16,659 nucleotides of DNA from a virus (IMGVR_UViG_2548876696_000013); one strand, 5' to 3'; positions 1 through 14,182 are shown, counted from the stretch's first letter. Notes: generated by a model from the sequence alone, not told the origin. Translations and numbers: made by a program.

Positions 1-1461
1 ATGAAAAAATTACTGCGTCTTTTTTTCCCGCTCTCGCTGCGGGTACGTTTTCTGTTGGCAACGGCAGCGGTAGTACTGGTGCTTTCGCTTGCCTACGGAA
101 TGGTCGCGCTGATCGGTTATAGCGTCAGTTTCGATAAAACTACGTTTCGGCTGTTACGTGGCGAGAGCAATCTGTTCTATACCCTTGCGAAGTGGGAAAA
201 CAATAAGTTGCATGTCGAGTTACCCGAAAATATCGACAAGCAAAGCCCCACCATGACGCTAATTTATGATGAGAACGGGCAGCTTTTATGGGCGCAACGT
301 GACGTGCCCTGGCTGATGAAGATGATCCAGCCTGACTGGCTGAAATCGAATGGTTTTCATGAAATTGAAGCGGATGTTAACGATACCAGCCTCTTGCTGA
401 GTGGAGATCATTCGATACAGCAACAGTTGCAGGAAGTGCGGGAAGATGATGACGACGCGGAGATGACCCACTCGGTGGCGGTAAACGTCTACCCGGCAAC
501 ATCGCGGATGCCAAAGTTAACCATTGTGGTGGTGGATACCATTCCGGTGGAGCTAAAAAGTTCCTATATGGTCTGGAGCTGGTTTATCTATGTGCTCTCA
601 GCCAATCTGCTGTTAGTGATCCCGCTGCTGTGGGTCGCCGCCTGGTGGAGTTTACGCCCCATCGAAGCCCTGGCAAAAGAAGTCCGCGAACTGGAAGAAC
701 ATAACCGCGAATTGCTCAATCCAGCCACAACGCGAGAACTGACCAGTCTGGTACGAAACCTGAACCGATTGTTAAAAAGCGAACGCGAACGTTACGACAA
801 ATACCGTACAACGCTCACCGACCTGACCCATAGTCTGAAAACGCCACTGGCGGTGCTGCAAAGTACGCTGCGTTCTCTGCGTAGTGAAAAGATGAGCGTC
901 AGTGATGCTGAACCGGTAATGCTGGAGCAAATCAGCCGCATTTCACAGCAAATTGGCTACTACCTGCATCGTGCCAGTATGCGCGGCGGGACATTGCTCA
1001 GCCGCGAGCTGCATCCGGTCGCCCCACTGCTGGACAATCTCACCTCGGCGCTGAACAAAGTGTATCAACGCAAAGGGGTCAATATCTCTCTCGATATTTC
1101 GCCAGAGATCAGCTTTGTCGGTGAGCAGAACGATTTTGTCGAGGTGATGGGCAATGTGCTGGATAATGCCTGTAAATATTGCCTCGAGTTTGTCGAAATT
1201 TCTGCAAGGCAAACCGACGAGCATCTCTATATTGTGGTCGAGGATGATGGACCCGGTATTCCATTAAGCAAGCGAGAGGTCATTTTCGACCGTGGTCAAC
1301 GGGTTGATACTTTACGCCCTGGGCAAGGTGTGGGGCTGGCGGTAGCCCGCGAAATCACCGAGCAATATGAGGGTAAAATCGTCGCCGGAGAGAGCATGCT
1401 GGGCGGTGCGCGGATGGAGGTGATTTTTGGTCGCCAGCATTCTGCGCCGAAAGATGAATAA
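1..1461 (+). CDS. phoQ: Sensor histidine kinase PhoQ, complete (486 aa)
   Basis: Full-length ORF. Translation shows two TM segments flanking a periplasmic sensor domain with the acidic patch EDDDDAE, an H-box ([10 protein letters not shown]) and ATP-binding G-boxes ([15 protein letters not shown]). Recognised from memory as enterobacterial PhoQ; not verified by search. Confidence 0.95.
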
Positions 1462-1583
1462 ATATGTCCTTTTATCATTACACCAGGTCAAGTCATTGAT
1501 TTAATTAAACAATTATCATTGAAAAAGTGCCAAAAATCGCAAATTGACTACACCATTAACTACACCGTTCGGTGCACTGTATG

Positions 1584-1609
1584 AAACAACGTGGAACAAA
1601 TAGACACAA
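1584..1609 (+). repeat. Three 10-bp-phased NNACAA hexamers (AAACAA-cgtg-GAACAA-atag-ACACAA); candidate recombination-directionality-factor or regulator binding array near the island terminus
   Basis: Hexamers at 1584, 1594 and 1604 with exact 10-bp spacing. The 14-mer ACAACGTGGAACAA at 1586-1599 is identical to the one at 9161-9174. Confidence 0.5.
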
Positions 1610-1895
1610 GAAATATACAGGCGGGTAATCTTTCCAGGGGGAAGCGCACCAATTCATGAGGGGCGTTAATGTCGATATGGGGATCCCCATAACGGGGCTA
1701 CCGGATTTTTTTTCCGGTTAACATTTAATCAGGCTGGTGGGTTTTACATACCCTTGATCACCGTAATGATGATCCAGATGTGCACCTTTTCCACCAATGG
1801 CGGAAAGCTCCAACCGTAACGATGATCGCTATGGTTGCCTCGATGGCCTGCGTGGTCATTATGACCATTCAGAATGTGAGGGATGATGTTTCCGC

Positions 1896-2291
1896 TCTCC
1901 TCAAATTGAGGTTACCGGAAATATCAACTACTTAACGATAAACTGGCGAGTAATTAAACTGCGAAAATTTCGTAGCTTGTGACTATCTGAAAGATCGTCG
2001 GTTGTTCCGGCCTCAACCGTTGGCTGTTTCCGAGAATATCAACGGGTTAGCAAAGCGCAATTTTGCACTTTGCTTTAAGTTCAACCAGTTACCGCCAGCT
2101 TCCCCCAATGGGGGATTGTGGAATAATCAACGGTTTAGGCCTTAATCATCTGCGTAAACATAAGTAATCATAATGATCATTCAGCCAGCGCAAATTTGAG
2201 CTTTGCTTTAAGTTCAGCGAGTTACAGCGCCGACTTCCTCAAATTGAGGTTGCCGGAAATATCAACCAGTTACGAGGCTCAAAATTGAGCC
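1896..2291. repeat. Terminal non-coding repeat cluster: palindromes of the form CTCAA-A-TTGAG and degenerate copies of a 12-mer GGAAATATCAAC
   Basis: Palindromes CCTCAAATTGAGG at 1899-1911 and 2237-2249, GGCTCAAAATTGAGCC at 2276-2291, degenerate GCGCAAATTTGAGC at 2188-2201. 12-mer copies at about 1917, 2031, 2118 and 2255. Two roughly 40-45 bp segments are duplicated (1896-1937 vs 2234-2275; 2051-2096 vs 2185-2228). No ORF of 60 aa or more lies in 1462-2308. Confidence 0.6.
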
Positions 2292-2308
2292 GCCTTTAAA
2301 TCAACACG

Positions 2309-2590
2309 TTACCGCCGTAACCGCTCCGGCTTCTTCCAGTGATACGTGATTTTCTCCTTCTCCCGATACAGTTCAACGCGGCGATTGTAGGCCAGCATTT
2401 CCAGAACGCGGATCCGTATGTCGCGCATATCCGCATCATTAAGCTGGATACCATCACGGCGCATCACCTCAGCAACAACACGCGCATAATTTTCGGCTGT
2501 CACGCTGTCCGGCTGCGTGGTCTGTTCGTCAGCCTGCTGGCTGATTCCAGAGACGCGGCGGATTAATCGCAGTATTTCGGCTTCTGTCAT
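2309..2590 (-). CDS. Hypothetical protein (93 aa), last gene of the packaging operon
   Basis: ORF begins 13 nt downstream of the TerL stop on the same strand, with a GAGG motif 9 nt upstream of the ATG. No family recognised. Confidence 0.55.
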   Translation of the reverse strand: MTEAEILRLIRRVSGISQQADEQTTQPDSVTAENYARVVAEVMRRDGIQLNDADMRDIRIRVLEMLAYNRRVELYREKEKITYHWKKPERLRR

Positions 2591-2603
2591 GCTGCTGACC
2601 TCA

Positions 2604-4265
2604 TTACACCCCGCTAAATTCTTCCAGTTTCTGGCGGTGGCTGTCGCTTATATCAAAAGCAAAATCCTCATGCTCTGCCTGGAATGTACCAAACGCCATC
2701 AGCGCCGCTACGCTCGGGTCTATCTTGTTCGGTGATTTTTTCTTGTTCGGCTTGATATTGGCGTTCGCGTCACTCTGCATCACGACGTTACTCATCGACC
2801 AGGACAACACCGGATCGCCACGATGCACAATCACCCTGCGGTTAACAAAAACTTCGAACGATTTCGCCGCCGGACTGAATCTGAGGTAGGTTTGCGGGAA
2901 CGGCTCCACCTCAAAACCAGCCCCCTGTAATTGCGTCCTGAGATGCGTGGCGTTCCACGTATCAAAGCCCACCAGCCTGATATTAAATTTCTCCGCATCC
3001 TGCATGATGTCATCTCTGATCCGGTCGTAATCAATGCAGTCACCTGGCGTTGTGCGTATCCAGCCCGCTTTAGCCCACTGGCGATAGACAGCGCGGTTTT
3101 TATTGGCGGGGTTCTGTAGCTGGAACTCCGGCAGATAATGACGGGAAACCAGCATGATATTTTTACCGACCGGAAAGGCATAGCACACGCTGGAAATATC
3201 GCTGGTTGATGATAAGTCCAGCCCCGCGTAACACTCCTGCCCGTGTAAATCTTCCTCCGTGAACGTTCCGGCACACTCAGCCCATGCGCCGTTACCCATC
3301 CACGGGGTAGCCCCCTGGCACCAGATATTAAATCGCTTTGTCATCATCTCCACCCATTGCGACGGAATACCCCGCGCTTTCTGGATGGTTGAGGCCAGTT
3401 TTTCACGATCCACGGAAACATCGATGTTAGGGTTAGCCTTTATCCACATCGCCGGATCATCAACCTCGTTTTCGTCGTCCAGCTCGTAAATCAGCACAAA
3501 AATTGAATCGTTGACCTCTTCGCCGTCCAGGATCTGGCAGCAATAATCATAGTGCTGTTTACAGGTTGAAACGACGTTACTGCCCGATGTGGTAATGGCA
3601 AATAACAGCCCTTCGGGACGTGCGCCCATCCCCAGCTCAAGCGCGGAATAAACGCCGTTATCGGGGTGTAGGTGGTATTCGTCCACGATGGAAAGGCTGG
3701 GGTTTGTTCCCTCGATGGTTGCCGCTTTTGCTGCCAGCGGCTTTAACAGGCTGTTGCTTTTCGGGTGCATCACCTTGTGGGCCTGAATATTCACCCGCCT
3801 GCGTAACGGTCGGGATAAAAGGCACATCTGACGCGCATCATCAAAAACGATCCGCGCCTGGTCACGGCTCACCGCTGCGGTGTAAATATCCTGCTGCCCG
3901 TTCTCCATAATCAGAAACCAGTTAGCCAGAATCGCGGCGGTCGTGGATTTCGCATTTTTGCGCGGCACTTCGATAAAGGCGCTCGTGTATTTGCGCCGTC
4001 CGGTGGCCTTAACCTTAAAGCCGAGGATGCACGCAAAGGCGAACTGCTGCCACGGCTCCAGCTCAATGGGTCTGCCACGCATCGGCCCTTTTACGTGCGG
4101 GCACACCCTGGAAAAGGCAATAAACCGCTCCACAACCTCACGATCGAACGTGTAAAGGGGGCTTTCAAGGTCCGAAAAGTACCGTTTAACGGCCTGTTTC
4201 AGCCGTTTACAGGCCGGAATTTTGCCCGTTTTTACGTCTTCTGCGTACTTATTCCAGGCGGTCAA
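2604..4265 (-). CDS. terL: Terminase large subunit (553 aa)
   Basis: N-terminal ATPase with Walker A-like VPRKNAKST and a C-terminal nuclease region; its start overlaps the 3' end of the TerS gene. Confidence 0.9.
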   Translation of the reverse strand: MTAWNKYAEDVKTGKIPACKRLKQAVKRYFSDLESPLYTFDREVVERFIAFSRVCPHVKGPMRGRPIELEPWQQFAFACILGFKVKATGRRKYTSAFIEVPRKNAKSTTAAILANWFLIMENGQQDIYTAAVSRDQARIVFDDARQMCLLSRPLRRRVNIQAHKVMHPKSNSLLKPLAAKAATIEGTNPSLSIVDEYHLHPDNGVYSALELGMGARPEGLLFAITTSGSNVVSTCKQHYDYCCQILDGEEVNDSIFVLIYELDDENEVDDPAMWIKANPNIDVSVDREKLASTIQKARGIPSQWVEMMTKRFNIWCQGATPWMGNGAWAECAGTFTEEDLHGQECYAGLDLSSTSDISSVCYAFPVGKNIMLVSRHYLPEFQLQNPANKNRAVYRQWAKAGWIRTTPGDCIDYDRIRDDIMQDAEKFNIRLVGFDTWNATHLRTQLQGAGFEVEPFPQTYLRFSPAAKSFEVFVNRRVIVHRGDPVLSWSMSNVVMQSDANANIKPNKKKSPNKIDPSVAALMAFGTFQAEHEDFAFDISDSHRQKLEEFSGV

Positions 4266-4605
4266 GCTCGTCCTCTTCTTCTGTTTCCGGTGGATTTTTA
4301 CGGCGGCTTATCGGGTCAAAACCGAGCAAAGAGGCCATTTTTATCATCACTCTTTCAGCGTCGGATTTTGCGCTTAATGCGGGGTTTCTGCTCTCGCCGC
4401 CCTGACTGTTAACAATGCTGAACCCGCGCGCCGCAAGGTCTGCAACGGCTTTCCGGTAAATGGAGTAGTTGACACAATACAGTTCCAGATTGCTCCAGTC
4501 GGCGGGGGTCAGGTCTCCCCGTTCCGCAAGCTGCCTAGATTTTTCCCGCCACTGCTTCACGGCGATATCATCCAGGTAGGCGGGGGCTTTCGGTGGTCTT
4601 GCCAT
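4249..4605 (-). CDS. terS: Terminase small subunit, P27-like family (118 aa)
   Basis: Small basic protein immediately upstream of and overlapping TerL. Sequence pattern resembles the P27 small-terminase family (from memory). Confidence 0.75.
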   Translation of the reverse strand: MARPPKAPAYLDDIAVKQWREKSRQLAERGDLTPADWSNLELYCVNYSIYRKAVADLAARGFSIVNSQGGESRNPALSAKSDAERVMIKMASLLGFDPISRRKNPPETEEEDELDRLE

Positions 4606-4893
4606 GCTTATTTTTCGCCAGATTATTTTTCAAAAAATTCCCGTGCATAAAAATTTGAGGAGGCGTTCGGTGCCCGGCGGGGTCGGGTTTGTCCTGAAAA
4701 CGCCCCCCACCCCGTCATACAGCCTCATCAGCGATTGCGGAAACATTCCATAACCTCGCGGTCACGGTCGGTTAATCGCTTCGCTGTGATGCGTTCTGCG
4801 CGTCCTGACGCTTTATCTTTATGCCCTGTTTCCTGTGTCTTCCATGCGTCACGCTGCCTTATAAGTCCACGGATAAGGCGGTTTTGTTCCCGC
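4606..4893 (-). other. Candidate cos / packaging-initiation region (non-coding gap between HNH and terS)
   Basis: 288-bp gap in an otherwise tightly overlapping operon. Contains a GC-rich stretch (4664-4720: gtgcccggcggggtcgggtttgtcctgaaaacgccccccaccccg). In HK97-like cos phages the cos site sits between the HNH gene and terS. Confidence 0.35.
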
Positions 4894-5334
4894 TCATTCA
4901 TCGGCGTCATACATCCAGTTATTGCGGTTAGCGGCCCGTTCTTCCTCTTCACGAAATCCACCTGCGGCACGCTTGCTTTTTGTTGCCGGATCAAGCCATT
5001 TCGTTTTCTGGTTATGACACGCCTGGCACAATGGCTGATGGTTCCATTCGGGCCAGAAGAGAACATCATCACCGCCATTAATCGGGATAATGTGATCCAC
5101 CACCACGGCGGGCGTATATATCCCCTTCTCAAGGCATCGCACGCATAACGGGTTTTTACTCAGATACATGGCGCGGTATTTGTCCCACTGTCTGGAATAT
5201 CCACGCGCGCGGCGGTGTCCTCGTCTGGCATCCTCTGCACGCCATGCCGCCCGCCTGTGCTCCTCACACTTGCCGGATTTAACGCGCCTGTTACAGCCTG
5301 GTTCTGTGCATCGTCTTAATGGTTGCCACGGCAT
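4894..5334 (-). CDS. HNH endonuclease, packaging-associated (146 aa)
   Basis: Cys-rich zinc-finger-like segments (CTEPGCNRRVKSGKCEEH, CVRCLEKG, CQACHNQK) and an HNH-like core (VVDHIIPI...WNHQPLC). Position directly upstream of the terminase genes. Confidence 0.85.
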   Translation of the reverse strand: MPWQPLRRCTEPGCNRRVKSGKCEEHRRAAWRAEDARRGHRRARGYSRQWDKYRAMYLSKNPLCVRCLEKGIYTPAVVVDHIIPINGGDDVLFWPEWNHQPLCQACHNQKTKWLDPATKSKRAAGGFREEEERAANRNNWMYDADE

Positions 5335-5630
5335 CAGTACACCCCCACATCACGGTAAGCCGTCCAGAGTGCGCCAATCGTCATGGGTACGCGTGTTTTT
5401 GCGTTATCCGCGACAATCTGGCGATTCTCATACAGGTGAGCGATAAACATCATGCAGCCAATCTTTATGGCTGGCGTGAACTCCAGCCCGTCATCAAAGC
5501 GCCTGCCTATATGTATCTGGCACGCCTCAAGCGATGCGGCAATGTATCCGCTGATTAACTGGTCTTCCTCGTCGCCATCGATACGGCAATGGAGTTTCAC
5601 TTCTTCCAGGGTGATAAGTTCTTCTGTCAT
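5334..5630 (-). CDS. Head-tail connector protein, gp6-like (98 aa)
   Basis: Size, position after the head-closure gene, and N-terminal LEEVKLHCRID motif typical of gp6-like connector proteins. Start overlaps the upstream stop by 4 nt. Confidence 0.7.
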   Translation of the reverse strand: MTEELITLEEVKLHCRIDGDEEDQLISGYIAASLEACQIHIGRRFDDGLEFTPAIKIGCMMFIAHLYENRQIVADNAKTRVPMTIGALWTAYRDVGVY

Positions 5631-5965
5631 TTTTCCGCGCCCTCACGACAAAGAATTTCAAGGCGTGTCCTGGCGGCATCCGGCAGCGGCTGCCCGATGA
5701 TATTCAGTACACGCCCCGCCAGCGGCCCCGTATTGACCTTTATCCGGCTGGTGGCGCTGATGTCCTTCCGGTACCGTATCCAGATCCTTACGGTACCAAT
5801 CGCCAGCTCTGCACCCGATGAAATGGCCTCCTTGCTGCTGACCATGTTCACGCTTGCCCAGAGTGTGTGACTGTCCTCCCACGTTTCGAGTATTTCGCCA
5901 GTTATATCCCTGGTCTGTTTCAGGGTCTGAATCGTTACCCTGTCACGCAGTCGCCCTATGTTCAT
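5627..5965 (-). CDS. Head closure / head-tail adaptor protein (112 aa from the internal start MNIGRLRDRVTIQ)
   Basis: The start chosen is the ATG overlapping the portal stop (ATGA at 5962-5965). The GRLRDRVTIQ motif is typical of this family. The longer ORF reaching 6007 would overlap the portal gene. Confidence 0.65.
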   Translation of the reverse strand: MNIGRLRDRVTIQTLKQTRDITGEILETWEDSHTLWASVNMVSSKEAISSGAELAIGTVRIWIRYRKDISATSRIKVNTGPLAGRVLNIIGQPLPDAARTRLEILCREGAEK

Positions 5966-7173
5966 TCCGGTTTTTCTCCCTCGCTGATTTTTACTTCCTG
6001 TTTCCATGCCTGGCTGAACTCATCACCACCATCACGCGGGGACAGCCCTTCACGTTCGCGGGCTTCGTTCGGGCACATAACGCCGGATTTGATACCGCGC
6101 TCATAGGTGGCAAAGCGTTCGCCAGGTGTGGCCCGTAACAGGTCCGCGCTGTCAAACTCCACCTGATACCGGATACCAGGTACAGGCGAGGCCACCAGCA
6201 GGGCGTTTTTTATCTGCTGCTCAAAGTTCGCCAGCCACGGGCGCATCGTCATGGTGAGAAATGCGCGGCTTGCCTCGCTGAAATTGCTGTAGGTGCTGTT
6301 GCTGTATTCCTGCAAAAAAATCGGCGAGACGTTGAACATTCGGGCGATGTCTTCAATGGTGAAGCGACGGGAGGCCAGCCATTCAGCATCCTGGTTACTC
6401 ATGCCCAGCTGCTGGTAACTCATGCCACCTTCAAGGATGGGCGTTTTTCCGGCGTTTCTGGCCCCTTTATAGCGTTCCAGTGCGGCTAATGCCTGTTTGC
6501 CCTTCACGCCGTCCAGCCATTCGCCTGACGTGATAACCCCTGCCGCCATCATGCCATCACGCATCACGCTCGCGCCGTGGCGTTGTTGGGCCAGCCCAAG
6601 CCCCAGCGATTCGCGGCAGATGGTTACAGGTGAGCGCCCCATAAAACCGTCATCCGTGGAGTAACGAAGGTGGAGAACCTCCCACGGTAAATAGTTGCGG
6701 GTGTTTCCGGTGTAGGCGTCAGTGATGCAGTAGCGCCAGTTATGCTCACCTGTCTGCTCCACGTTCACCGACTGCGGCGGGTAAGGATGTAAAGCCACCG
6801 GAAAACCATCACGCCCCCACTGAATCACCGCATAAGCATTACCGTTTAACAGGCAGTGGCGGATCATCATTCGCTTAAACTGGTAGGGGGTTTGCCATGC
6901 GTTCGGGCGCTCGTTGAGGATGTGATCGACCGGATGAGAATCAAGCCACTCGCGGGCCACCTTCCCCTTCTCATTGCGTACCAGGTACAGGTAACACGGC
7001 ATGGTAGCCACCGCCTCAGAGATGACCGTGACGGCGTTCATGACGGCGGGCAGTGATTCCGCTGTCCCCGATGATACGTACTCACCCGCCCCCGTGTTCG
7101 ATGTGCCAGCCAGCGCCATAAATTCATCAAGCGTCATGCTGCGCTGCTCTTTTTTTCTTCTGAAAGGCCACAT
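5962..7173 (-). CDS. Portal protein, HK97 family (403 aa)
   Basis: Size and position between the protease and adaptor genes; HK97-type portal sequence pattern from memory. Confidence 0.85.
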   Translation of the reverse strand: MWPFRRKKEQRSMTLDEFMALAGTSNTGAGEYVSSGTAESLPAVMNAVTVISEAVATMPCYLYLVRNEKGKVAREWLDSHPVDHILNERPNAWQTPYQFKRMMIRHCLLNGNAYAVIQWGRDGFPVALHPYPPQSVNVEQTGEHNWRYCITDAYTGNTRNYLPWEVLHLRYSTDDGFMGRSPVTICRESLGLGLAQQRHGASVMRDGMMAAGVITSGEWLDGVKGKQALAALERYKGARNAGKTPILEGGMSYQQLGMSNQDAEWLASRRFTIEDIARMFNVSPIFLQEYSNSTYSNFSEASRAFLTMTMRPWLANFEQQIKNALLVASPVPGIRYQVEFDSADLLRATPGERFATYERGIKSGVMCPNEAREREGLSPRDGGDEFSQAWKQEVKISEGEKPE

Positions 7174-7174
7174 A

Positions 7175-7747
7175 TCACACCCCCGCTAAATCCACCCACC
7201 AGCGGCGATTATCCGCACGCGGCATTTTTTCGGGGTGCTGCTCATACAGGGAACGGCGGGCCAGCTCCACGCCGGAATCAGGGTAAGCCGGAACGGATGT
7301 AACGGTAATTTCGTACAGTTCCGCCACCAGCACGGTGCGCACGCATGGTTCTGTTGTGGTATCCCATACATCCTTACGGGAACGAAAGCCAAAGCTCATG
7401 CCGGATATATCACCACGTTTAACCAGTTCGATAACGTCCCGCCCTGTGCTGGTATCCGGTGGGGTCAGTTCAAAGCGTAACCCTGTTTCGTCCTCTTCCA
7501 GTTTCAGCGTGCCGGAACGGGTACGCCCCAGTAACATGCTGTGGTCATGCTCATACAGGCCGCGAACGTCATTACCCGCCGCAAGCCATTCAGTAAACGC
7601 TCCCCGCTGGAATTTTTCGTAAAACTCACCCCATAACAGTTCTGAAAGCTTATCCCAGCGAACAACGTAGCCCGTCAGCGTACCGGCTCCGCTGGTGGTG
7701 ATTTCCGATGACCGGATTTCCATACTCTTCATAATTTTTTCACCCAT
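7175..7747 (-). CDS. Prohead maturation protease, HK97 family (start ambiguous among ATGs at 7747, 7732 and 7723)
   Basis: Conserved protease-family pattern (GYVVRWDK ... HD ... LLGRT ... GLRFE ... ISGMSFGF). The first ATG lies inside the upstream terminator tract, so the true start is probably one of the next two. Confidence 0.8.
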   Translation of the reverse strand: MGEKIMKSMEIRSSEITTSGAGTLTGYVVRWDKLSELLWGEFYEKFQRGAFTEWLAAGNDVRGLYEHDHSMLLGRTRSGTLKLEEDETGLRFELTPPDTSTGRDVIELVKRGDISGMSFGFRSRKDVWDTTTEPCVRTVLVAELYEITVTSVPAYPDSGVELARRSLYEQHPEKMPRADNRRWWVDLAGV

Positions 7748-7756
7748 AAAACACTA

Positions 7757-7776
7757 AAGGGGCTTTTAAGCCCCTT
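7757..7776 (-). terminator. Intra-operon hairpin (GGGGCTT-AAGCCCC) followed by a U-rich tract, between the capsid and protease genes
   Basis: Hairpin directly seen in sequence. On the minus-strand transcript it is followed by UUUAGUGUUUUAU. Likely a partial terminator that sets capsid-to-downstream stoichiometry. Confidence 0.5.
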
Positions 7777-7786
7777 CTGTATGCTG

Positions 7787-8944
7787 TTAATCGTCGTCCT
7801 GTGGCAGTTCCAGAATCTTGATCGCGTTCGAATCCACCACGCCACCGCCTAAATATTTCTGCGTGAAAATTTTGATGAAGCCCGGCTCTGTGAGGTTGTC
7901 CGGTCTGGTGCGAACACCTGTTTCGTGATCAACAATGTAGTAACCGCGTTTGAAGTCACCCAGGGCAATAACGTTATCAGGCATAAACTCCAGATATTCG
8001 ACCGGAAGGCCCAGCAACGTATCAGGATCACCCGCCTGTAAACGGTCGCGCCAGATGTAATCACCGTTCGCGTTCTTCACCTTCTGAAGTTTTGCCGCCG
8101 TCGTGGAGTTAACCACCCAGACCGCGTTTTTGCGGTATTTTTTACGTAATGCAAATTTCAGGTCGATCAACGGGTCCGCAGATGTCCACGCCAGAGATTC
8201 GGAAGGTTTAATTACCTGCAACGTACCAAAATCACGCTCTTTGTCGTTCTTCTCTGCACGGGGTACGGATAAAAAGCCTTTTGCTTTTTTGTCACCGTCG
8301 CCCACAACCAGATCGCTTTCTTCGGTTTCCGTGAAGGTGTCGCCAATCTCACCCGTCAGCCATGAAAGGATGTCCACATCGGAAAAATCCACGATTTCCT
8401 GTGTGGTGCGCGGGTACGCATAGACCGGATACAGCTTAATGCTCACCTCGTTAATCTGCGGGGTGCTGGTCTGTTCGCGTGTCTTACCCTCTTCACCGTG
8501 GTTAACGGTCGCACCGCCAGCGGAAACAAGCTGCTTAAACTCGTTGCTGCTGATTTTCTTCACGGTACAGATGCGGCGCATGGTGGACTCATCCGCCAGC
8601 ATTCGCATGATTTCGGTGTTCAGCTCGGGGATAACGGTATAACCACCATCAGCGGGAACGCCTGTACTTAATGCGCGGGTTTCACCCGTCAGAATGTAGT
8701 TTCGTAGTTCTGCGGGGTCAGTGGTCTGACTGCTTTTACCTGGCTTGCTGCGCTCTTCGTCTGCAATGGCTTCAAGGCGGGAAATGTCTTTATCGAGGGA
8801 TTCAGCTTTAGCGCGTAATTCGTCAAATTTTGCGCCCTCAGCATCGTTAAGACTGCGGTTTTCTTTTTCCGCGTTCTCCAGCATGTCGCGCATCTGATTT
8901 TTAATGGCGGTTTTCTGCTGGCGTAATTCGATTATTCTCGGCAT
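7787..8944 (-). CDS. Major capsid protein, HK97 fold, with N-terminal coiled-coil delta (scaffold) domain (385 aa)
   Basis: N-terminal 100 aa are charged and helical (delta-domain-like), followed by a capsid-like body. First gene of the head operon. Confidence 0.9.
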   Translation of the reverse strand: MPRIIELRQQKTAIKNQMRDMLENAEKENRSLNDAEGAKFDELRAKAESLDKDISRLEAIADEERSKPGKSSQTTDPAELRNYILTGETRALSTGVPADGGYTVIPELNTEIMRMLADESTMRRICTVKKISSNEFKQLVSAGGATVNHGEEGKTREQTSTPQINEVSIKLYPVYAYPRTTQEIVDFSDVDILSWLTGEIGDTFTETEESDLVVGDGDKKAKGFLSVPRAEKNDKERDFGTLQVIKPSESLAWTSADPLIDLKFALRKKYRKNAVWVVNSTTAAKLQKVKNANGDYIWRDRLQAGDPDTLLGLPVEYLEFMPDNVIALGDFKRGYYIVDHETGVRTRPDNLTEPGFIKIFTQKYLGGGVVDSNAIKILELPQDDD

Positions 8945-8981
8945 AAAAAAAGTCCTGGGGTTAAGTAAGGAACTCCAGGAC
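8945..8981 (-). promoter_or_regulatory. Leader hairpin plus 7-nt A/U tract directly abutting the capsid start codon
   Basis: Stem GTCCTGG (8952-8958) pairs with CCAGGAC (8975-8981). On the mRNA the hairpin is followed by U7 and then the AUG at 8944; the only purine-rich SD-like element sits in the 3' arm of the stem. Confidence 0.5.
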
Positions 8982-9157
8982 GCGGCAAAAACTCAACCGT
9001 TTTTCATAAGGGAATCAGCAATCGCACCGATCGTTTTCCCGCCTGGTAATGAATATTGGCGAGCACATTAACAGGCGGGAAAGTGGCCCCAGCGTCCTGG
9101 CACCACGGGCGAGAATAATCATGATTCAGTTCGGGTAAAATATGCCGATCCGCTCAG

Positions 9158-9205
9158 TGAACAACGTGGAACAACCACGAACAAATAATTTACAAAAAAT
9201 AACAA
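9158..9205 (+). promoter_or_regulatory. Array of 10-bp-phased GAACAA hexamers upstream of the capsid operon; candidate activator-binding site
   Basis: GAACAA at 9159, 9169 and 9179 with spacers CGTG, CCAC and ATAA; two weaker ACAA copies follow at 9192 and 9202. Same motif family as 1584-1609 and 15338-15383. Confidence 0.5.
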
Positions 9206-9225
9206 AAAGCCGGATTGCTCCGGCT
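9192..9225 (-). terminator. Rho-independent terminator after the 74-aa gene
   Basis: Hairpin AGCCGGA-ttgc-TCCGGCT (9208-9225) followed on the minus strand by a U-rich tract; the gene's stop codon is at 9236. Confidence 0.7.
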
Positions 9226-9235
9226 GTATGGGTGC

Positions 9236-9460
9236 TCAGTCCCTGATCCCTTTCAGAAATTCTATCAATGCATCTGTCTGTTCAGGATTTACCGCCAGCA
9301 TTTCACCGGATAGCGCGCAACGAACAAAACCATGATGATCCTTTTCAATCAGCGCCCCCGTTTCCAGGAATGCTCGGTAATCAGTGATGTTCATCGTCTC
9401 CATGTTGTCAGCATGGTATTTATCACGCTGTTTTAATATCTCATCAAATTTCGTCGGCAT
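9236..9460 (-). CDS. Hypothetical protein (74 aa), insulated monocistronic gene
   Basis: Start chosen at the internal ATG (9458-9460), which has GAGGA 7 nt upstream. Flanked on both sides by near-identical terminator hairpins. Confidence 0.55.
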   Translation of the reverse strand: MPTKFDEILKQRDKYHADNMETMNITDYRAFLETGALIEKDHHGFVRCALSGEMLAVNPEQTDALIEFLKGIRD

Positions 9461-9554
9461 TGTTTTTTCCTCTGTTGTGTCTGTTTGTTTCAGATAGTAA
9501 CTATGCCGGACCGTGACGAAAAGCCAGTAGTGCGCCATACCATTTCAAATGACG

Positions 9555-9578
9555 CAAAAAAGCCGGATTGCTCCGGCT
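9555..9578 (-). terminator. Rho-independent terminator after the PerC-like gene (same hairpin sequence as 9208-9225)
   Basis: Hairpin AGCCGGATTGCTCCGGCT at 9561-9578 preceded on the plus strand by A6 (U6 on the minus-strand transcript). Upstream stop codon at 9601. Confidence 0.7.
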
Positions 9579-9600
9579 GCGTGGTGTGGTTCTGATATTC

Positions 9601-9849
9601 CTACTCAGCTAATTTGCTCAGCCCCATGTCTGCATAAGTGCGATTTACTGCATTTCTCAGGTCTGCGTAGTTCTCCGTTGGCGGCTCCGGTGGCCTCTGT
9701 GCCTTCCTGGAACATTCCAGCCGTCGCATCGTAACCTGATGCCGTTCCTTGTCTGTCTCCACCAGCTGCATGACTTCACCCCATCGCGCCGCCGCCCTCC
9801 GGTAAAATCCTTTCGCCTCGAGTTCCTCCGCTATGCGGTCATGTACCAT
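9601..9849 (-). CDS. PerC/ANR-like small transcriptional regulator (82 aa from the internal start MVHDR)
   Basis: Start chosen immediately after the SSB stop, with a strong SD (GAGGGGGTGAGG then ATG). The motif AEELEAKGFYRRAAARWGEV resembles the PerC-family core from memory. The longer ORF to 9969 would overlap SSB. Confidence 0.45.
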   Translation of the reverse strand: MVHDRIAEELEAKGFYRRAAARWGEVMQLVETDKERHQVTMRRLECSRKAQRPPEPPTENYADLRNAVNRTYADMGLSKLAE

Positions 9850-9859
9850 CCTCACCCCC

Positions 9860-10270
9860 TCAGAACGGAATACCATCACCGTAAGGGTCATCGCCTCCCG
9901 CTGGTGGCTGATTACCCTGTGTGCCTGTGGTTTTGCGTCTGTTCCCGCCTGGACGTGCCGCGCGGGCACTGATTACGCTGTCTGCGATAACCTGCCAGCC
10001 CTGCCGCGTTTCGCCGTTCTGGCCTGTCCACTGGCTTACCTGCATCGTGCCGGATACGCTGGCAACATCGCCTTTTTGATGTTTAGCCAGGAAGTCGGCC
10101 TGTTTGCCAAATGCGATGACCGATAACCATAACGTCGCCTGTCCGTCCTGTGCCTGGCTGCATGGCAAAGATACCGCCATACGCGCCAGCGTCATCGGTG
10201 TGCCCTTGCTGGTCTGTTTTACCTGCGGGTCGTCCACCAGCCGCCCGTAAGCGGCTATCTGTGCCGTCAT
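9860..10270 (-). CDS. ssb: Single-stranded DNA-binding protein (136 aa)
   Basis: OB-fold-like N-terminus (YGRLVDDPQVKQTSKGTPMTLARMAV), Gly/Pro/Gln-rich linker and acidic C-terminal tip DDPYGDGIPF characteristic of SSB. ATGA overlap with the upstream gene. Confidence 0.8.
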   Translation of the reverse strand: MTAQIAAYGRLVDDPQVKQTSKGTPMTLARMAVSLPCSQAQDGQATLWLSVIAFGKQADFLAKHQKGDVASVSGTMQVSQWTGQNGETRQGWQVIADSVISARAARPGGNRRKTTGTQGNQPPAGGDDPYGDGIPF

Positions 10271-10518
10271 AATTCCACCTCTCCGGTTTTAACGTTGATG
10301 GTTGTTACCTGTTCCGCTTCGGCAATCTCCCGTTCTGTCAGCGTGGCAAAGTTTGCCGCTGCTGTGGTCATGAATGCGCTTATCAGGTCGGGATGTTCTT
10401 TCGCGTATCCTTCCCCCGCGTGGCGGTCTATCGTTCTGATTGCCACCTTTAAGGCGTGCTCTGTCATGTCTAATGCTTTATATTTTGGCGCTGTCTTATC
10501 TCTGGTTTTTCTGTTCAT
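10267..10518 (-). CDS. Hypothetical protein (83 aa), first gene after the origin
   Basis: ORF translationally coupled to ssb (ATGA overlap). Start abuts the iteron array. No family recognised. Confidence 0.5.
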   Translation of the reverse strand: MNRKTRDKTAPKYKALDMTEHALKVAIRTIDRHAGEGYAKEHPDLISAFMTTAAANFATLTEREIAEAEQVTTINVKTGEVEL

Positions 10519-10716
10519 TCCCCACTACTCCCCACTTTTGCTCCCCACTTTTTGAAATTACCCACCGTCTCCCCACCTCTTTTTTTTGTGATTCTAACGT
10601 TATGTTTTTCAATATGTTTTTTACTCCCCACTTTTTTGGGTGTATACAGGTGGGAAAGTGGGTAATTATGTTTCAATTTTGTTAAATTCCCCACTCTCCC
10701 CACTTTTACTCCCCAC
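10519..10716. repeat. Iteron-type replication origin: 8 direct TCCCCAC repeats, 1 variant, 2 inverted copies and an AT-rich spacer
   Basis: TCCCCAC at 10519, 10529, 10542, 10570, 10625, 10688, 10697 and 10710; variant ACCCACC at 10560; inverted copies at 10649-10664; AT-rich stretch at 10577-10624. Lies directly 3' of the replication ATPase gene. Confidence 0.7.
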
Positions 10717-10719
10717 TTT

Positions 10720-12129
10720 TTACAGCGGGCGCACGTCATCACCGTCAATAACGATTACGCCATCATTTTCCAGCTTGTACAGCCAGCGCCGGAAGTGCTT
10801 CATCTCATACCCCAGCTTTTTCATATCATCGCGGAGAAGGGCGATAGTGCACGCCTCCCCGTGTGCTGTTCGTGTTCTGATGCACTGCCATAGCGCGGCG
10901 TGATTCTCCGTCTTGTTCCCTGCCTCCTCGATGCGCTCCAGTTCAACGGGAGGGCGCGGCTTATCCACCACCACCAGCGACGTGATTAACTCCCCGTCAG
11001 CGTCGGTAAAAAGCTCCACCACCCGCAAATCATAGGCAGCCTCTTTGAGTTCCTCCGCGTCCTTCATTTTGGTGCATGAGATAACCAGCGCTTCGCTTCC
11101 TGCGTCCTCCCTGCGTATCCGGTATTCAGCATCCAGTGATGCACGAAATGCACTGGAACCGCGCGCGCCTTTCGTCTCATCCTTGCCGGAATGGTGAACC
11201 ACCAGCACCGTGGCCCCTGTGCGCCGTTTCAGTTCGTCACACCCACGGATAAACGCCCCCATGTCACGGGAATCATTTTCGTCATTGCCGCCAAAGCAAC
11301 GCGCCAGCGTGTCCAGAATAATCATGCGAACAGGTTTACCCGTTTCCCGCTCAACCTGGCTGGCAGCAATAACCAGTTCATCAACATCAAGCGGGACAGC
11401 CGGAAAGATGGGACGGTTTACAAGGTAAAGATTTTTCACCTGCTCCCCGTGCACAACCTCCCAGGCTTTTACACGACGCGGAACGCCAATACCGCCTTCA
11501 CCAACCACATAGAGAACAGCGCCATGCGCCACCCTGCGGCCTCCCCACTGGCGGCCCGTGGAAACGTGACACGCCCACGATCCGGCAAGGAATGATTTAT
11601 AGGAACCGCTCGCCCCGTATATGCTGCAAAGCGACGATGCCGGAATAATCCCCTTTACCACGTAATCAAGCTGTGTGTCGTATCCGGTAGATCCAACGCT
11701 CATCGGTAGCGTGGTTTTTCGCTGGGGGATTTTTTTCATGACCAGGCTTTCCCCGCGTTCCCATGCCTCCCTAAGCCGTGGAAGCTGGTCGTTCCATTCC
11801 TCCAGCAATTCGAAATTTTCAGAAAGTAGCCGCGCCTCCTGGACTCCGGCGATCGCCAGTTTCGTGGCGATGGTTAACAGCTGCGGCTCTTCAATATTTC
11901 CGGCGCGTATCACCGTCGCCCTGTATCGCCCATCATCAACAATCTGGAGGTTATCCAGTTCGCTTAACTGATAACGCCCCAGATAAACGGGAGGGACTGG
12001 ATCGCCTGCTTTTTTGGCCTGTGCAATGATGTAGTGCTCTGCAAATGAGTGCGCATTATTCCCCGCGAAAATAATTGCTTCGGTGTATTTGTCTTTCGGT
12101 AATAGTTTTACGTTCGGTGCAAGTTTCAT
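10720..12129 (-). CDS. Replication initiation ATPase / helicase-like protein, RecA-fold AAA type (469 aa)
   Basis: Walker A motif GASGSYKS, Walker B-like MIILDTLARCF, and a C-terminal putative winged-helix region. Position immediately upstream of the iterons. Confidence 0.8.
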   Translation of the reverse strand: MKLAPNVKLLPKDKYTEAIIFAGNNAHSFAEHYIIAQAKKAGDPVPPVYLGRYQLSELDNLQIVDDGRYRATVIRAGNIEEPQLLTIATKLAIAGVQEARLLSENFELLEEWNDQLPRLREAWERGESLVMKKIPQRKTTLPMSVGSTGYDTQLDYVVKGIIPASSLCSIYGASGSYKSFLAGSWACHVSTGRQWGGRRVAHGAVLYVVGEGGIGVPRRVKAWEVVHGEQVKNLYLVNRPIFPAVPLDVDELVIAASQVERETGKPVRMIILDTLARCFGGNDENDSRDMGAFIRGCDELKRRTGATVLVVHHSGKDETKGARGSSAFRASLDAEYRIRREDAGSEALVISCTKMKDAEELKEAAYDLRVVELFTDADGELITSLVVVDKPRPPVELERIEEAGNKTENHAALWQCIRTRTAHGEACTIALLRDDMKKLGYEMKHFRRWLYKLENDGVIVIDGDDVRPL

Positions 12130-12425
12130 TTTTTACCCCTGAATACGTTCAACATCTTTCTTATTTCCTGAATATTGGCGCGTGCTTTCTCCCTGCTGGT
12201 GGGCACGTTACGCGGTACAGCCTGCACCAGAGAAAAATCACGGTCGAACTGATAAACAGGCATAACGCAATCATATTCGTAGCCTTCACGGCGGTAAGTT
12301 ACGCGCCGTTCCTCCACGCCCTTAATCATTACCGTGCCGCCGTACTGGTCGCGGTAAATATCACCGCGCGTAAATTTAGGGTGAGTGTTGCCACTGGCAG
12401 TTAAGCCAGGATATTTAAGTTTCAT
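12126..12425 (-). CDS. DUF4222-like small protein (99 aa)
   Basis: The pattern GDIYRDQYGGTVMIKGVEERRVTYRREGYEYDCVMPVYQF resembles the DUF4222 family often found next to satellite or prophage replication genes (from memory). ATGA overlap with the rep gene. Confidence 0.55.
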   Translation of the reverse strand: MKLKYPGLTASGNTHPKFTRGDIYRDQYGGTVMIKGVEERRVTYRREGYEYDCVMPVYQFDRDFSLVQAVPRNVPTSREKARANIQEIRKMLNVFRGKK

Positions 12426-12430
12426 TATTT

Positions 12431-12658
12431 TTATTCTCCGGTGTGGGGCGCTTTATTATTTTCGTGAATTGCCATCGCCTTATCCAGTTCATCAATTACA
12501 GGCGATAGTAATGTCTGAACGGCGGCAAATATTAATGATGCAGGTTCTCCACCATCTTCCGGCACGTCTATTAACTTAATTAACAGCGCATTCATTTCAC
12601 GCGCTTTAATTAATGCGTTTTCAGAATGAATAAGAACATCATAGGGTATTTTATGCAT
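12431..12658 (-). CDS. Hypothetical protein (75 aa)
   Basis: ORF whose start overlaps the stop of the upstream small gene by 8 nt (ATGCATAA). No family recognised. Confidence 0.5.
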   Translation of the reverse strand: MHKIPYDVLIHSENALIKAREMNALLIKLIDVPEDGGEPASLIFAAVQTLLSPVIDELDKAMAIHENNKAPHTGE

Positions 12659-12821
12659 GACTCACCCCCTGACGAATACGGGCGACAAAAATCAGATGTG
12701 CGCGCGGCAACTGGGCGCGGGCTTCGCGTTCAGTGGCTGCGGTAACGGTGTAAATATCAATGCTGCTGTGGTGGCACTGCATAAAGCGCCAGACAAAGTA
12801 AGGGCGTGCGGATACAGCCAT
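12651..12821 (-). CDS. Small protein, paralog B (56 aa core; possibly Icd-like). A longer 150-aa form starting at 13115 is also possible
   Basis: Shares FVWRF, TEREAR and ARIRQG motifs with paralog A. A synonymous codon difference in the shared ARIRQG segment supports coding on this strand. Start is ambiguous. Confidence 0.45.
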   Translation of the reverse strand: MAVSARPYFVWRFMQCHHSSIDIYTVTAATEREARAQLPRAHLIFVARIRQGVSHA

Positions 12822-13107
12822 GTGAAAGGCTCCCAGATGAAATTTAAGGAGTCTCGCTACTACGCTGCTAAACGGGGTGGCGAGACGTAACAGGGTTAGC
12901 AGACTGGTCATCTGGAAACCAGCGAGCGCAAAGGCTCCCCCGTTACGCCCCGCCATAATGCGGGTATGGGTAGGTTTACGGACACAAAAAAACCGCTTAT
13001 CGGATATGGGCGGCTGTCCGCCAGATGTATTCAGGCTGCTAAACCCGGTCGCCATGTGGGCGACGGGTGAAGCATACAGCCCCGTTATAATTTTTTGCAA
13101 GCGGCTT

Positions 13108-13305
13108 TTACTCATGATGTGACCCCTGACGAATACGAGCGGCAAATACAGCAACACAACCGGACGGGCAACGGTTACGCGCTTCGCGTTCCGTCCAGGC
13201 GGTGACGTGGATGATTTGAGATTCTCCGGCACTCAGGGCCAGAAAACGCCACACAAAGGCCGTTTGTGTGTGTACAAGGTGTGGTATATGATTTACGGCA
13301 ACCAT
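13108..13305 (-). CDS. Small protein, paralog A (65 aa); possible host cell-division-inhibitor Icd-like protein
   Basis: Strong SD (GAGGAG 6 nt upstream of the ATG). Paralogous to 12651-12821. The Icd-like call rests on an uncertain memory of the family pattern. Confidence 0.5.
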   Translation of the reverse strand: MVAVNHIPHLVHTQTAFVWRFLALSAGESQIIHVTAWTEREARNRCPSGCVAVFAARIRQGSHHE

Positions 13306-13336
13306 AACGGCTCCTCGTTTACGTTGTTGGTTAGAA

Positions 13337-13377
13337 GCCCCGTATGTGTTCCAGCACTGCGGGGTTTCGTCTTTTCT
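13337..13377 (+). terminator. Hairpin (ccccg / cgggg stem, conserved 17-nt loop) with a U-rich tail; plus-strand terminator-like element, copy 1
   Basis: Seen in sequence. A near-identical element, including the loop, occurs at 14083-14124. Confidence 0.45.
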
Positions 13378-13394
13378 GTACCTTGCATCAACAA

Positions 13395-13476: not shown

Positions 13477-13497
13477 CAAAAACATGAGGGGTTAAAC

Positions 13498-13677: not shown

Positions 13678-13734
13678 TCACTATCAGCGCCGTGGTGTGA
13701 GGTACTACGGCGCATTGCTTTACAGGGCAGTATC

Positions 13735-14124: not shown

Positions 14125-14130
14125 TGCTAG

Positions 14131-14164: not shown

Positions 14165-14182
14165 ATATGGGGTGTAATTGAC

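What the first reader, a model, noticed from the sequence alone, without database searches (positions are those of the whole stretch)
1896..2300. Repeat-dense 0.85 kb non-coding terminus with CTCAA-TTGAG palindromes and GGAAATATCAAC 12-mers
Seen in sequence: no ORF of 60 aa or more; three near-perfect 13-16 bp palindromes sharing half-site CTCAA(A), at least four copies of a 12-mer, and duplicated 40-45 bp blocks in shuffled order. There are also hairpins at 1640-1720 (GGGGATCCCC; CCGGA-T8-TCCGG). This is too organised for spacer DNA. Candidates include integrase or IHF arm sites of the att region, TerS recognition sites, a binding array for a helper-phage protein, or a structured non-coding RNA.
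Basis: seen in the sequence. Interest (0 to 1): 0.5.

Follow-up and report, generated by a model that had tools for sequence, protein, structure and literature searches.

The report
IHF-site and palindrome array ending satellite
The stretch is a real, non-coding array of seven repeat units, each a short palindrome followed at a fixed distance by a match to the binding consensus of the host DNA-bending protein IHF. It starts at the stop codon of the last late gene of a phage satellite (a capsid-forming PICI), it has not been described in the papers I could search, and its function has not been tested.

Summary
Window 1471-2308 is island DNA of an EcCIEDL933-like capsid-forming PICI inserted just after phoQ. 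K-12 has none of it.

Positions 1891-2311 hold seven co-oriented units. Each is an AT-centred palindrome whose centre lies 16-17.5 bp upstream of a 13-mer. Five of the seven 13-mers match the IHF consensus WATCARNNNNTTR exactly.

Across 50 distinct units from 34 satellites, only the IHF-critical bases (TCA, TTA) are invariant. The palindrome arms change by compensatory substitutions.

The array always abuts the stop codon of a 93-aa satellite-specific gene ("hyp93"). It has 1-7 copies and occurs nowhere else in the islands. It travels with hyp93 through at least four satellite types with different packaging, replication and integration modules.

Morganellaceae relatives carry the same motif plus a hairpin directly after the terL stop.

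It is not the ori (iterons at 10509-10721). It is not the cos (a conserved site upstream of terS). It is not the Int arm sites (1543-1566). It is not a known RNA family.

Best reading, by inference only: an IHF-bound, BIME-1/RIP-like boundary element at the 3' end of the late operon. IHF binding and function are untested. I rate it a new variant of a known kind, of moderate interest.

The parts
1460..1469 (.). att core (AAATATGTCC), directly after the phoQ stop. The island begins at about 1471.
   Evidence: Three-way alignment of the window attL, the K-12 empty site and the attR of an O157 island. K-12 has only a 76-bp phoQ-roxA spacer.
1489..1501 (-). Core-proximal exact IHF consensus (AATCAATGACTTG). 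Likely the intasome IHF site.
   Evidence: IHF binding is inferred.
1543..1566 (+). Tandem ATTGACTACACC / ATTAACTACACC. Likely Int arm-type sites.
   Evidence: The same ACTACACC pair sits on the int side of attR in L002 and next to the att of a Pectobacterium island.
1679..1717 (+). Conserved hairpin cluster: GGGGATCCCC, CCCCATAACGGGG and CCGGA-T8-TCCGG.
   Evidence: Identical in islands inserted at other sites. Function unknown.
1891..2311 (+). The array: seven co-oriented units, each a palindrome plus an IHF-consensus 13-mer.
   Evidence: A profile HMM built from the units finds them only here in the window.
1899..1934 (+). Unit 1: palindrome CCTCAAATTGAGG (1899-1911) and TATCAACTACTTA (1922-1934, exact IHF consensus).
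2009..2049 (+). Unit 2: weak palindrome inside GGCCTCAACCGTTGGCTG (2009-2026) and TATCAACGGGTTA (2037-2049, exact).
2049..2091 (+). Unit 3: palindrome AGCAAAGCGCAATTTTGCACTTTGCT (2049-2074) and GTTCAACCAGTTA (2079-2091). TCA and TTA are kept, the WA positions are lost.
2101..2137 (+). Unit 4: palindrome TCCCCCAATGGGGGA (2101-2115) and AATCAACGGTTTA (2125-2137, exact).
2187..2224 (+). Unit 5: decayed palindrome AGCGCAAATTTGAGCT (2187-2202), which is intact as GCGCAATTTTGCGC in L001, and GTTCAGCGAGTTA (2212-2224, partial consensus).
2237..2272 (+). Unit 6: palindrome CCTCAAATTGAGG (2237-2249) and TATCAACCAGTTA (2260-2272, exact).
2276..2311 (+). Unit 7: palindrome GGCTCAAAATTGAGCC (2276-2291) and AATCAACACGTTA (2299-2311, exact). 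Its TTA (2309-2311) is the reverse complement of the hyp93 stop codon.
   Evidence: A unit sits in this position in all 31 islands examined.
2309..2590 (-). hyp93: a 93-aa protein specific to these satellites and always adjacent to the array. Function unknown.
   Evidence: Matches phrog_1561, has no Pfam hit, and has 965 homologues, all of those listed being E. coli. It is absent from phage records. The model is three helices at pLDDT 69 with no fold match.

Best explanation
The array is a set of tandemly amplified copies of one cis-element that marks the 3' end of the satellite's late (packaging) operon.

Each unit offers a binding site for host IHF (WATCARNNNNTTR). An AT-centred palindrome abuts the other half of the expected IHF footprint. 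The palindrome can form a hairpin in the read-through late transcript, or extrude as a cruciform in the DNA.

Proposed mechanism (inferred, not shown). IHF binds and sharply bends each unit, building a compact nucleoprotein block between the heavily transcribed late operon and what lies beyond it. In the integrated state that is the converging host gene phoQ. In the excised circle it is attP followed by int. The block would act as a boundary: a transcriptional and topological insulator. The hairpins would also cap the 3' end of the late mRNA. This is how E. coli BIME-1/RIP elements, which are IHF sites flanked by palindromic units at the 3' ends of operons, are thought to work.

Shown here: the anatomy, the conservation pattern, the compensatory palindromes, the fixed position at the stop codon, and the independence from the ori, cos, Int type and TerS type.

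Inferred: IHF occupancy and the boundary function.
For: 1. Five of the seven 13-mers are exact IHF consensus matches on one strand. The window has 8 matches against 1.19 expected. The consensus itself is taken from 10.1101/382655.

2. In 50 distinct units from 34 satellites, the only invariant columns are T, C, A and T, A at 2.0 bits, with the neighbouring T at 1.86 bits. These are the IHF-critical bases. The N4 spacer and the flanks vary. 36 of 50 units match the consensus exactly.

3. The palindrome centre is fixed 16-17.5 bp upstream of the 13-mer, while there are 32 different perfect-stem strings. In the 18-unit subset, 77% of cells pair. The covariation score is 0.394, against 0.142 in shuffles (0 of 500 reach it) and at most 0.136 when partners are slid.

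4. The units occur only next to hyp93, in one orientation and at 1-7 copies. The first unit always overlaps the stop codon.

5. Independent lineage. In 18 Morganellaceae cf-PICI loci, where terL is the last gene, the stop codon is followed at +0 or +4 by TAACNNNTTGATT. Several of these loci continue with an AT-rich spacer, a variable GC hairpin and AATCAANNNGTTA.

6. The module is shared by satellites with different packaging genes, unrelated primases and different insertion sites.

7. BIMEs sit between genes and can act as barriers to supercoil diffusion (PMC6907758).
Against: - No binding data exist. The IHF assignment rests on a consensus match and on the conservation profile.
- The AT-rich palindrome centre lies about 5 bp further out than the A-tract of the lambda H' site, by my register from the recalled H' sequence. 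The palindrome is therefore probably not simply the other half of an IHF site.
- Two window units, and 14 of 50 overall, deviate at the W and A positions.
- C at position 6 and G at position 9 are conserved beyond what IHF needs, which could point to another protein.
- No canonical terminator or promoter is present, so the boundary function has no direct sequence support.
- Copy number ranging from 1 to 7 shows that extra copies are dispensable.
- cf-PICIs of other Enterobacteriaceae genera carry cargo genes here and no array.
Confidence: 0.4

Rival explanations
1. RNA-level element only. The palindromes are hairpins in the 3' UTR of the late operon that protect the mRNA from 3' exonucleases or are processing sites. 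The conserved 13-mer would be an RNA motif, or be constrained by its overlap with the stop codon, and its match to IHF would be incidental.
For: The array begins at the hyp93 stop and lies on the path of late transcription, with no terminator before it. Both strands fold far better than shuffles, with z-scores of -4.6 and -5.4. Stems are kept by compensatory change. In Morganellaceae the whole element is a roughly 61-nt imperfect hairpin directly after the stop.
Against: There is no excess of G.U over A.C at stem edges on either strand. Complementarity often runs to within 1-2 nt of the centre, which an RNA loop does not need. Internal units keep TTA although only the first one is a stop codon. 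The conserved and variable columns reproduce a dsDNA protein consensus. There is no Rfam match.
Confidence: 0.15
2. A binding array for hyp93, or for another satellite or helper protein. hyp93 and the array would form a cis/trans pair, for example an autoregulatory or interference module, with IHF acting at most as a cofactor.
For: hyp93 and the array are strictly linked across at least four satellite architectures. C6 and G9 are conserved beyond the IHF consensus, and the palindrome arms share a loose sCNCA form. hyp93 has a basic C-terminal tail.
Against: hyp93 gives a low-confidence three-helix model with no DNA-binding fold or family match. Palindrome arm sequences and half-site spacing vary, which is unusual for a sequence-specific dimer. 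Morganellaceae islands show the motif directly after terL with no intervening gene, and no hyp93-like match was found in those loci.
Confidence: 0.12
3. Non-functional amplification. One functional, or merely tolerated, terminal unit has been duplicated by slippage or unequal crossing-over, and the extra copies are neutral passengers in the variable accessory region.
For: Copy number ranges from 1 to 7 and block order is shuffled between islands. Only 314 of 422 nt align between the window and O157. One window palindrome has decayed (unit 5). Other genera have no array.
Against: Internal copies that have diverged to about 60-70% identity still keep TCA/TTA invariant and keep their palindromes through double substitutions. 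That argues for selection on each copy.
Confidence: 0.12
4. Extended attP arm. The IHF sites help fold a very large intasome for the P4-type integrase during integration or excision.
For: In the excised circle the array lies on the arm facing int. IHF is the classic intasome cofactor.
Against: The array lies 430-850 bp from the core. It is separated from the core by about 330 bp that are conserved between islands, and by the real arm-type repeats and a core-proximal IHF site. Arm motifs are absent from the array. The array itself is highly variable between islands.
Confidence: 0.08
5. Packaging element. A cosB-like set of TerS and IHF sites, or a decoy for the helper TerS.
For: The arm of the commonest palindrome, CCTCAAATT, also occurs in the conserved cos-region candidate upstream of terS (4652-4660 on the minus strand). 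Lambda cosB combines TerS sites with an IHF site (PMC9026076).
Against: The array lies downstream of terL, about 2.3 kb from the probable cos. HK97 TerS binds 15-29 bp from the cut. The array occurs with three unrelated TerS families and in a satellite type with no annotated terminase gene. Morganellaceae hairpins lack CTCAAATT. There is no similarity to phage DNA and no lambda cosN.
Confidence: 0.06

Closest known systems
BIME-1 / RIP (RIB) elements of E. coli (IHF site flanked by REP palindromic units at the 3' ends of transcription units)
   Same: Extragenic, and placed at the 3' end of an operon. An IHF consensus is combined with short imperfect palindromes. Copy number varies. Structure is conserved more than sequence. 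A plausible role as an mRNA-end or topological boundary.
   Different: No sequence relation to REP/PU units. One palindrome per IHF site, on one side only (on both sides in Morganellaceae), rather than two inverted PUs around the site. Not dispersed in the chromosome: confined to one position in phage satellites, and anchored on a stop codon.
Lambda-type attP and cosB nucleoprotein sites (IHF sites H1, H2, H' and I1)
   Same: Exact WATCARNNNNTTR cores in a mobile element that relies on IHF. The sites are adjacent to sites for other proteins.
   Different: Seven sites in 420 bp, all in one orientation. They are far from both the att core and the probable cos, and there are no arm-type or R-type repeats between them.
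Integron attC sites and CRISPR repeats (repeats whose hairpin is conserved in structure rather than sequence, next to short conserved boxes)
   Same: Variable-stem palindromes kept by compensatory change, each next to an invariant short motif, arranged as an array.
   Different: No R''/R' box pair and no cassettes between units. No spacers of fixed length. No integron integrase or cas genes. Units never flank cargo genes.

Membership tests
IHF binding site | Match to the consensus WATCARNNNNTTR | tested here: met
   5 of 7 window units and 36 of 50 distinct units match exactly. The consensus is as given in 10.1101/382655.
IHF binding site | The conservation profile follows the consensus: TCA and TT fixed, N4 free | tested here: met
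   Columns T, C, A and T, T, A carry 1.76-2.0 bits. The N4 columns carry 0.27-1.28 bits and the flanks at most 1.46 bits. The same pattern appears in Morganellaceae.
IHF binding site | [quoted passage not shown] | tested here: not met
   At the H'-equivalent position (-14 to -9) the units read GNGGTT. The AT-rich palindrome centre lies at -19 to -15. The register is taken from my memory of the H' 35-mer.
IHF binding site | Physical binding and bending by IHF | not testable with these tools
   Needs EMSA, footprinting or ChIP.
BIME-1 / RIP element | Extragenic position at the 3' end of a transcription unit | tested here: met
   The array starts at the stop codon of the last late gene in all 31 islands.
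BIME-1 / RIP element | REP/PU palindromic units of the chromosomal family, in inverted pairs around the IHF motif | tested here: not met
   4,465 of 5,426 complete E. coli genomes give no megablast match to the terminus. The 961 that match have 1-4 places each, and every place examined lies in a satellite. Each unit has a single palindrome on one side. I did not align the units to a PU consensus.
BIME-1 / RIP element | Dispersed in many copies around the chromosome | tested here: not met
   The units are found only next to hyp93 in 34 satellite loci.
Lambda-like cos (cosN plus cosB) | Adjacent to the cleavage site and upstream of terS | tested here: not met
   The array lies downstream of terL. 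A cos-like block conserved across genera lies upstream of terS at about 4620-4725. There is no lambda cosN.
attP arm region of a tyrosine integrase | Arm-type Int repeats and IHF sites within about 150 bp of the core | tested here: not met
   The core is at 1460-1469, an IHF consensus at 1489-1501 and arm-type repeats at 1543-1566. The array begins at 1891 and has no arm-type motif.
Satellite replication origin (iterons bound by Pri-Rep) | Iterons next to the primase gene that co-vary with it | tested here: not met
   TCCCCAC iterons lie at 10509-10721. The array is 420/422 identical in an island with an unrelated primase.
Known structured RNA (Rfam) | A covariance-model hit | tested here: not met
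   No relevant hit at E up to 5 in 1300-2700. No gathering-threshold hit in six related loci.
Integron attC array | R''/R' boxes bounding each imperfect palindrome, with cassettes between the sites | tested here: not met
   The conserved box lies on one side only. No ORFs lie between units and no units flank cargo.

The most novel reading that the evidence does not exclude
hyp93 plus the IHF-site/palindrome array form a dedicated cis/trans module common to E. coli phage satellites. When the satellite replicates to high copy, the module acts as a protein-free weapon or switch. One version: it sequesters IHF from lambdoid helpers, which use IHF at cosB and attP. Another version: it forms an IHF roadblock that stops antiterminated late transcription from running around the excised circle into attP and int. 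My evidence excludes neither version.
Probability: 0.07. Interest if true: 0.75.

Novelty: new variant of a known kind. Interest (0 to 1): 0.45.

Why it matters
Capsid-forming and classical E. coli PICIs are intensively studied model satellites, yet about 0.85 kb at one end of them carries no annotation. The papers I could search do not mention it.

If the array binds IHF, it adds a host-factor-dependent cis-element to the satellite life cycle. It could control where late transcription ends, how the excised circle is organised next to attP, or how the satellite competes with IHF-dependent helper phages.

It would also be a compact, naturally varying (1-7 copies) example of an operon-end element built from an IHF site plus a palindrome, outside the chromosomal BIME family. 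The predictions are cheap to test with EMSA, deletion constructs and transfer assays.

Tried and rejected
- Rfam scans of the terminus and of six related loci: nothing.
- Promoter and terminator scan: one weak promoter-like site outside the array and no terminator.
- blastn against phage records: only three short, marginal matches (E about 3e-3) inside unrelated genes. Plasmid records gave a few partial matches, which I did not inspect.
- Replication origin or a P4 crr-like iteron set: rejected. The real iterons are at 10509-10721, and the array is identical beside an unrelated primase.
- cos or cosB: rejected on position and on the mixture of TerS families.
- Cassette-junction (attC-like) sites: rejected because units never flank cargo.
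- Fis sites (GNTYAAAWTTTRANC). The palindrome arms resemble the half-sites, but the spacing is 1-2 bp too short and G/C at positions ±7 are missing. This was checked by eye.
- Tus-Ter, dif/Xer, DnaA boxes, and mimicry of the CRISPR I-E repeat and leader. I considered these from memory and dropped them for lack of a real match. They were not formally tested.
- Deciding the RNA strand from G.U versus A.C counts: uninformative.
- hyp93 function from structure prediction, Foldseek against the PDB, a PDB sequence-profile search and permissive Pfam: nothing usable.
- Literature searches by sequence strings, PICI plus IHF, and EcCIEDL933/SpLE2: no description of the array.
- My first regular expression for the reverse-complement motif was wrong. 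It was corrected.

Full report
**Context**

Window 1-1461 is phoQ. Everything from about 1471 onward is a phage satellite whose genes all lie on the minus strand:
- hyp93, a 93-aa protein (2309-2590)
- TerL (2604-4265)
- P27-family TerS (4249-4605)
- HNH (4894-5334)
- head-tail connector and head-closure genes
- portal, protease and capsid genes
- PerC and SSB
- a primase (10720-12129)
- a P4-type integrase (15430-16659)

These assignments come, and from the RefSeq annotation of near-identical islands. This is the EcCIEDL933-type capsid-forming PICI of Alqurainy et al. (10.1101/2022.09.08.507074).

A three-way alignment of the window, the empty K-12 site and the far junction of an O157 island places the att core at AAATATGTCC (1460-1469). 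K-12 has only a 76-bp phoQ-roxA spacer.

The whole 0.85-kb non-coding stretch is therefore island DNA. It also travels with the island to tqsA, to the clpS region and to a tRNA-Ile site.

**Checking the observation**

All the listed elements exist. The 12-mer turned out to be part of a longer repeat.

In the O157 version the unit is plainer. It is about 48 nt long and two copies lie in strict tandem. Anchoring on the conserved core aligns the units without gaps.

The window has seven units between 1891 and 2311. Each is a palindrome followed 8-10 nt later by a 13-mer.

**The 13-mer matches the IHF consensus**

The IHF consensus is WATCARNNNNTTR.
- The window holds 8 exact matches against 1.19 expected. 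None of 200 shuffles reach 8. Five of the eight are in the array and on one strand.
- A profile built from the units finds them nowhere else in the window, and nowhere else in 33 further satellite loci, on either strand.

**What is conserved**

From 31 islands I collected 51 distinct units and analysed 50 of them.

*The 13-mer.* The information profile is sharply uneven.
- T, C, A at positions 2-4 and T, T, A at positions 10-12 carry 1.76-2.0 bits.
- A at position 1 and the purine at position 5 are intermediate.
- The four N positions and both flanks vary.
- 36 of 50 units match the consensus exactly.

This is the profile expected of sites kept for IHF. It is not what recent duplicates that simply have not diverged would show.

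*The palindrome.*
- The palindrome centre sits at a fixed distance, 16-17.5 bp upstream of the 13-mer.
- The arm sequences differ: there are 32 distinct perfect-stem strings.
- Mean stem length is 5.8 bp, against 3.5 bp in shuffles.
- On 18 units that share one register, 77% of cells pair.
- Two stem positions change on both sides in 8 of 18 units.
- The covariation score is 0.394, against 0.142 in shuffles and at most 0.136 with slid partners.

The palindrome is therefore maintained as a structure or a symmetry, not as a sequence.

I could not tell whether it acts in DNA or in RNA.
- Both strands fold well: z = -4.6 on the minus strand and -5.4 on the plus strand.
- Stem edges show no excess of G.U over A.C on either strand.
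- Complementarity often reaches to within 1-2 nt of the centre. This leans slightly towards DNA.

**Position and linkage**

- The last unit's TTA is the reverse complement of the hyp93 stop codon. A unit occupies this position in every island examined.
- Copy number runs from 1 to 7.
- hyp93 is specific to these satellites. It matches phrog_1561 and has no Pfam hit. It has 965 homologues, all of those listed being from E. coli, and no match in 50,697 phage records.
- The hyp93-plus-array module ends satellites of at least four architectures:
  - HK97-like cf-PICIs;
  - islands with a lambda-like capsid, a decoration protein and a phrog_57 TerS;
  - islands with a phrog_141 TerS;
  - islands with only a protease-capsid fusion, including one embedded in a prophage terminase gene.
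- The window and an island inserted at tqsA have arrays that are 420/422 identical. Their primases are unrelated beyond the first roughly 140 residues.
- The O157 array aligns over only 314 of 422 nt with the window.

So the array is a hypervariable, recombining region in which only the core motif and the palindromic character persist.

**An independent lineage**

cf-PICIs of other Enterobacteriaceae genera carry cargo ORFs at this position and have no array.

In 18 Morganellaceae loci (Xenorhabdus, Providencia, Proteus) terL is the last gene, at 75-78% amino-acid identity. There the stop codon is followed at +0 or +4 by TAACNNNTTGATT (one mismatch allowed). This is the same motif in the same orientation relative to the gene.

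In several of these loci the element continues with an AT-rich spacer, a GC-rich hairpin of variable sequence, and the inverted copy AATCAANNNGTTA. It is sometimes repeated twice.

The three bases between TAAC and TTGAT are not complementary between the two arms. The arms are therefore conserved as sequence, not only as a stem.

This association of the last late-gene stop codon, an IHF-type motif and a variable hairpin is the strongest argument that the element is functional.

**What it is not**

- *The ori.* The origin is a block of TCCCCAC iterons directly downstream of the primase gene (10509-10721).
- *The cos.* The probable cos lies in the HNH-terS gap (about 4620-4725). This non-coding block is conserved across seven genera, consistent with the HK97 arrangement in which TerS binds 15-29 bp from the cut. 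Classical PICI cos sites likewise lie upstream of rpp (PMC9026076).
- *The Int arm sites.* The likely arm-type repeats (GACTACACC twice) and a core-proximal IHF consensus lie at 1489-1566. The same repeat pair appears on the int side of attR and in a Pectobacterium island.
- *A known RNA, or copied phage DNA.* There is no Rfam family, no usable promoter or terminator, and no meaningful similarity to phage DNA.
- *A described feature.* The literature I could search does not mention it.

One loose end keeps the packaging idea alive at low probability. The arm of the commonest palindrome, CCTCAAATT, also occurs in the conserved cos-region block.

**Mechanism**

I commit to the following at about 0.4 confidence.
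- IHF binds each unit.
- Together with the palindromes, this forms a boundary at the 3' end of the late operon.
- The boundary separates strong late transcription from phoQ in the integrated state, and from attP and int in the excised circle.

The closest analogues are E. coli BIME-1/RIP elements. BIMEs lie between genes and can block supercoil diffusion.

Only the anatomy and the selection pattern are shown. Occupancy by IHF and the boundary role are inference.

Points against this reading:
- The AT-rich centre is about 5 bp out of register with the H' A-tract.
- Two extra positions are conserved beyond the IHF consensus.
- Extra copies are plainly dispensable.

The rivals are an RNA-only 3' UTR element, a site array for hyp93 or another protein, neutral amplification, an extended attP arm, and a packaging site. 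They are listed with their tests.

hyp93 itself gave no functional clue. The model is three helices at pLDDT 69, with no fold, PDB or Pfam match.

**Verdict**

The feature is real, conserved in kind and not described in the papers I could search. It is best filed as a new, satellite-private variant of the IHF-site-plus-palindrome operon-end elements known from the E. coli chromosome. Interest is moderate. It gives PICI biologists a concrete and cheap set of experiments, but nothing yet shows an unusual mechanism.

Noticed in passing
window 1733-15775 (16 sites; listed): Chi (GCTGGTGG) is strongly over-represented. There are 16 exact sites in 16.7 kb against 0.61 expected from shuffles. Fifteen are inside the satellite, about one per kb: 11 on the minus strand and 4 on the plus strand. 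This suggests protection of the satellite's linear or rolling-circle DNA from RecBCD. The site at 1733-1740 lies in the conserved part of the terminus and is kept in most islands.
   Followed up: partly
window 4620-4725 (minus strand): The non-coding block upstream of terS (GGGGTGGGGG ... GGCACC ... CCTCAAATTTTTATGCACGG ... TTTTTTGAAAA) is conserved across seven genera. It is probably the cos site with its TerS-binding A/T tract. It shares the 9-mer CCTCAAATT with the commonest array palindrome.
   Followed up: partly
window 10509-10721: At least eight TCCCCAC(T) iterons in two 45-nt blocks lie directly downstream of the primase gene. This is the likely satellite replication origin.
   Followed up: partly
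window 15430-16659 versus L001:29811-31040: Integrases that are 90% identical sit in islands inserted at different sites: after phoQ in the window and inside tqsA in L001. The differences cluster in the N-terminal third. This may be a recent switch of att specificity.
   Followed up: no
L030:5659-5810, L021:2075-2215 and 16 other Morganellaceae loci: A symmetric element follows the terL stop: two inverted IHF-consensus 13-mers 48 bp apart around a variable GC hairpin, sometimes in tandem with a 76-nt period.
   Followed up: partly
L083:400-560, L148:600-740, L164 (twice): A different hairpin-rich conserved non-coding block (TACCCCAAATTTGGGTA ... AGTAAGCCCCAAAATCTGGGTGTTACTCTTACT ... GAGTTGCAGATCTGCAACTC) sits between the array and att in many E. 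coli satellites, but not in this window. It has no Rfam match.
   Followed up: no
window 1682-2178: There are six GATC sites in about 500 bp, about two being expected. Several are in TGATCA or TGATCG form, inside small direct repeats (ACCGTAATGATGATC twice) and inside the palindrome AATGATCATT.
   Followed up: no
L206:1896-3632: A satellite with a hyp93 remnant and one array unit is inserted inside a prophage terminase (gpA) gene. This appears to be an example of the helper-embedded satellites described in 10.1101/2022.07.18.500453.
   Followed up: no
PMC6907758, Table 2, as held in the library: In the stored text of this review the motif WATCAANNNNTTR is printed on the H-NS row and TCGATAAATT on the IHF row. 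The two appear to be swapped. I took the IHF consensus from 10.1101/382655 instead.
   Followed up: yes
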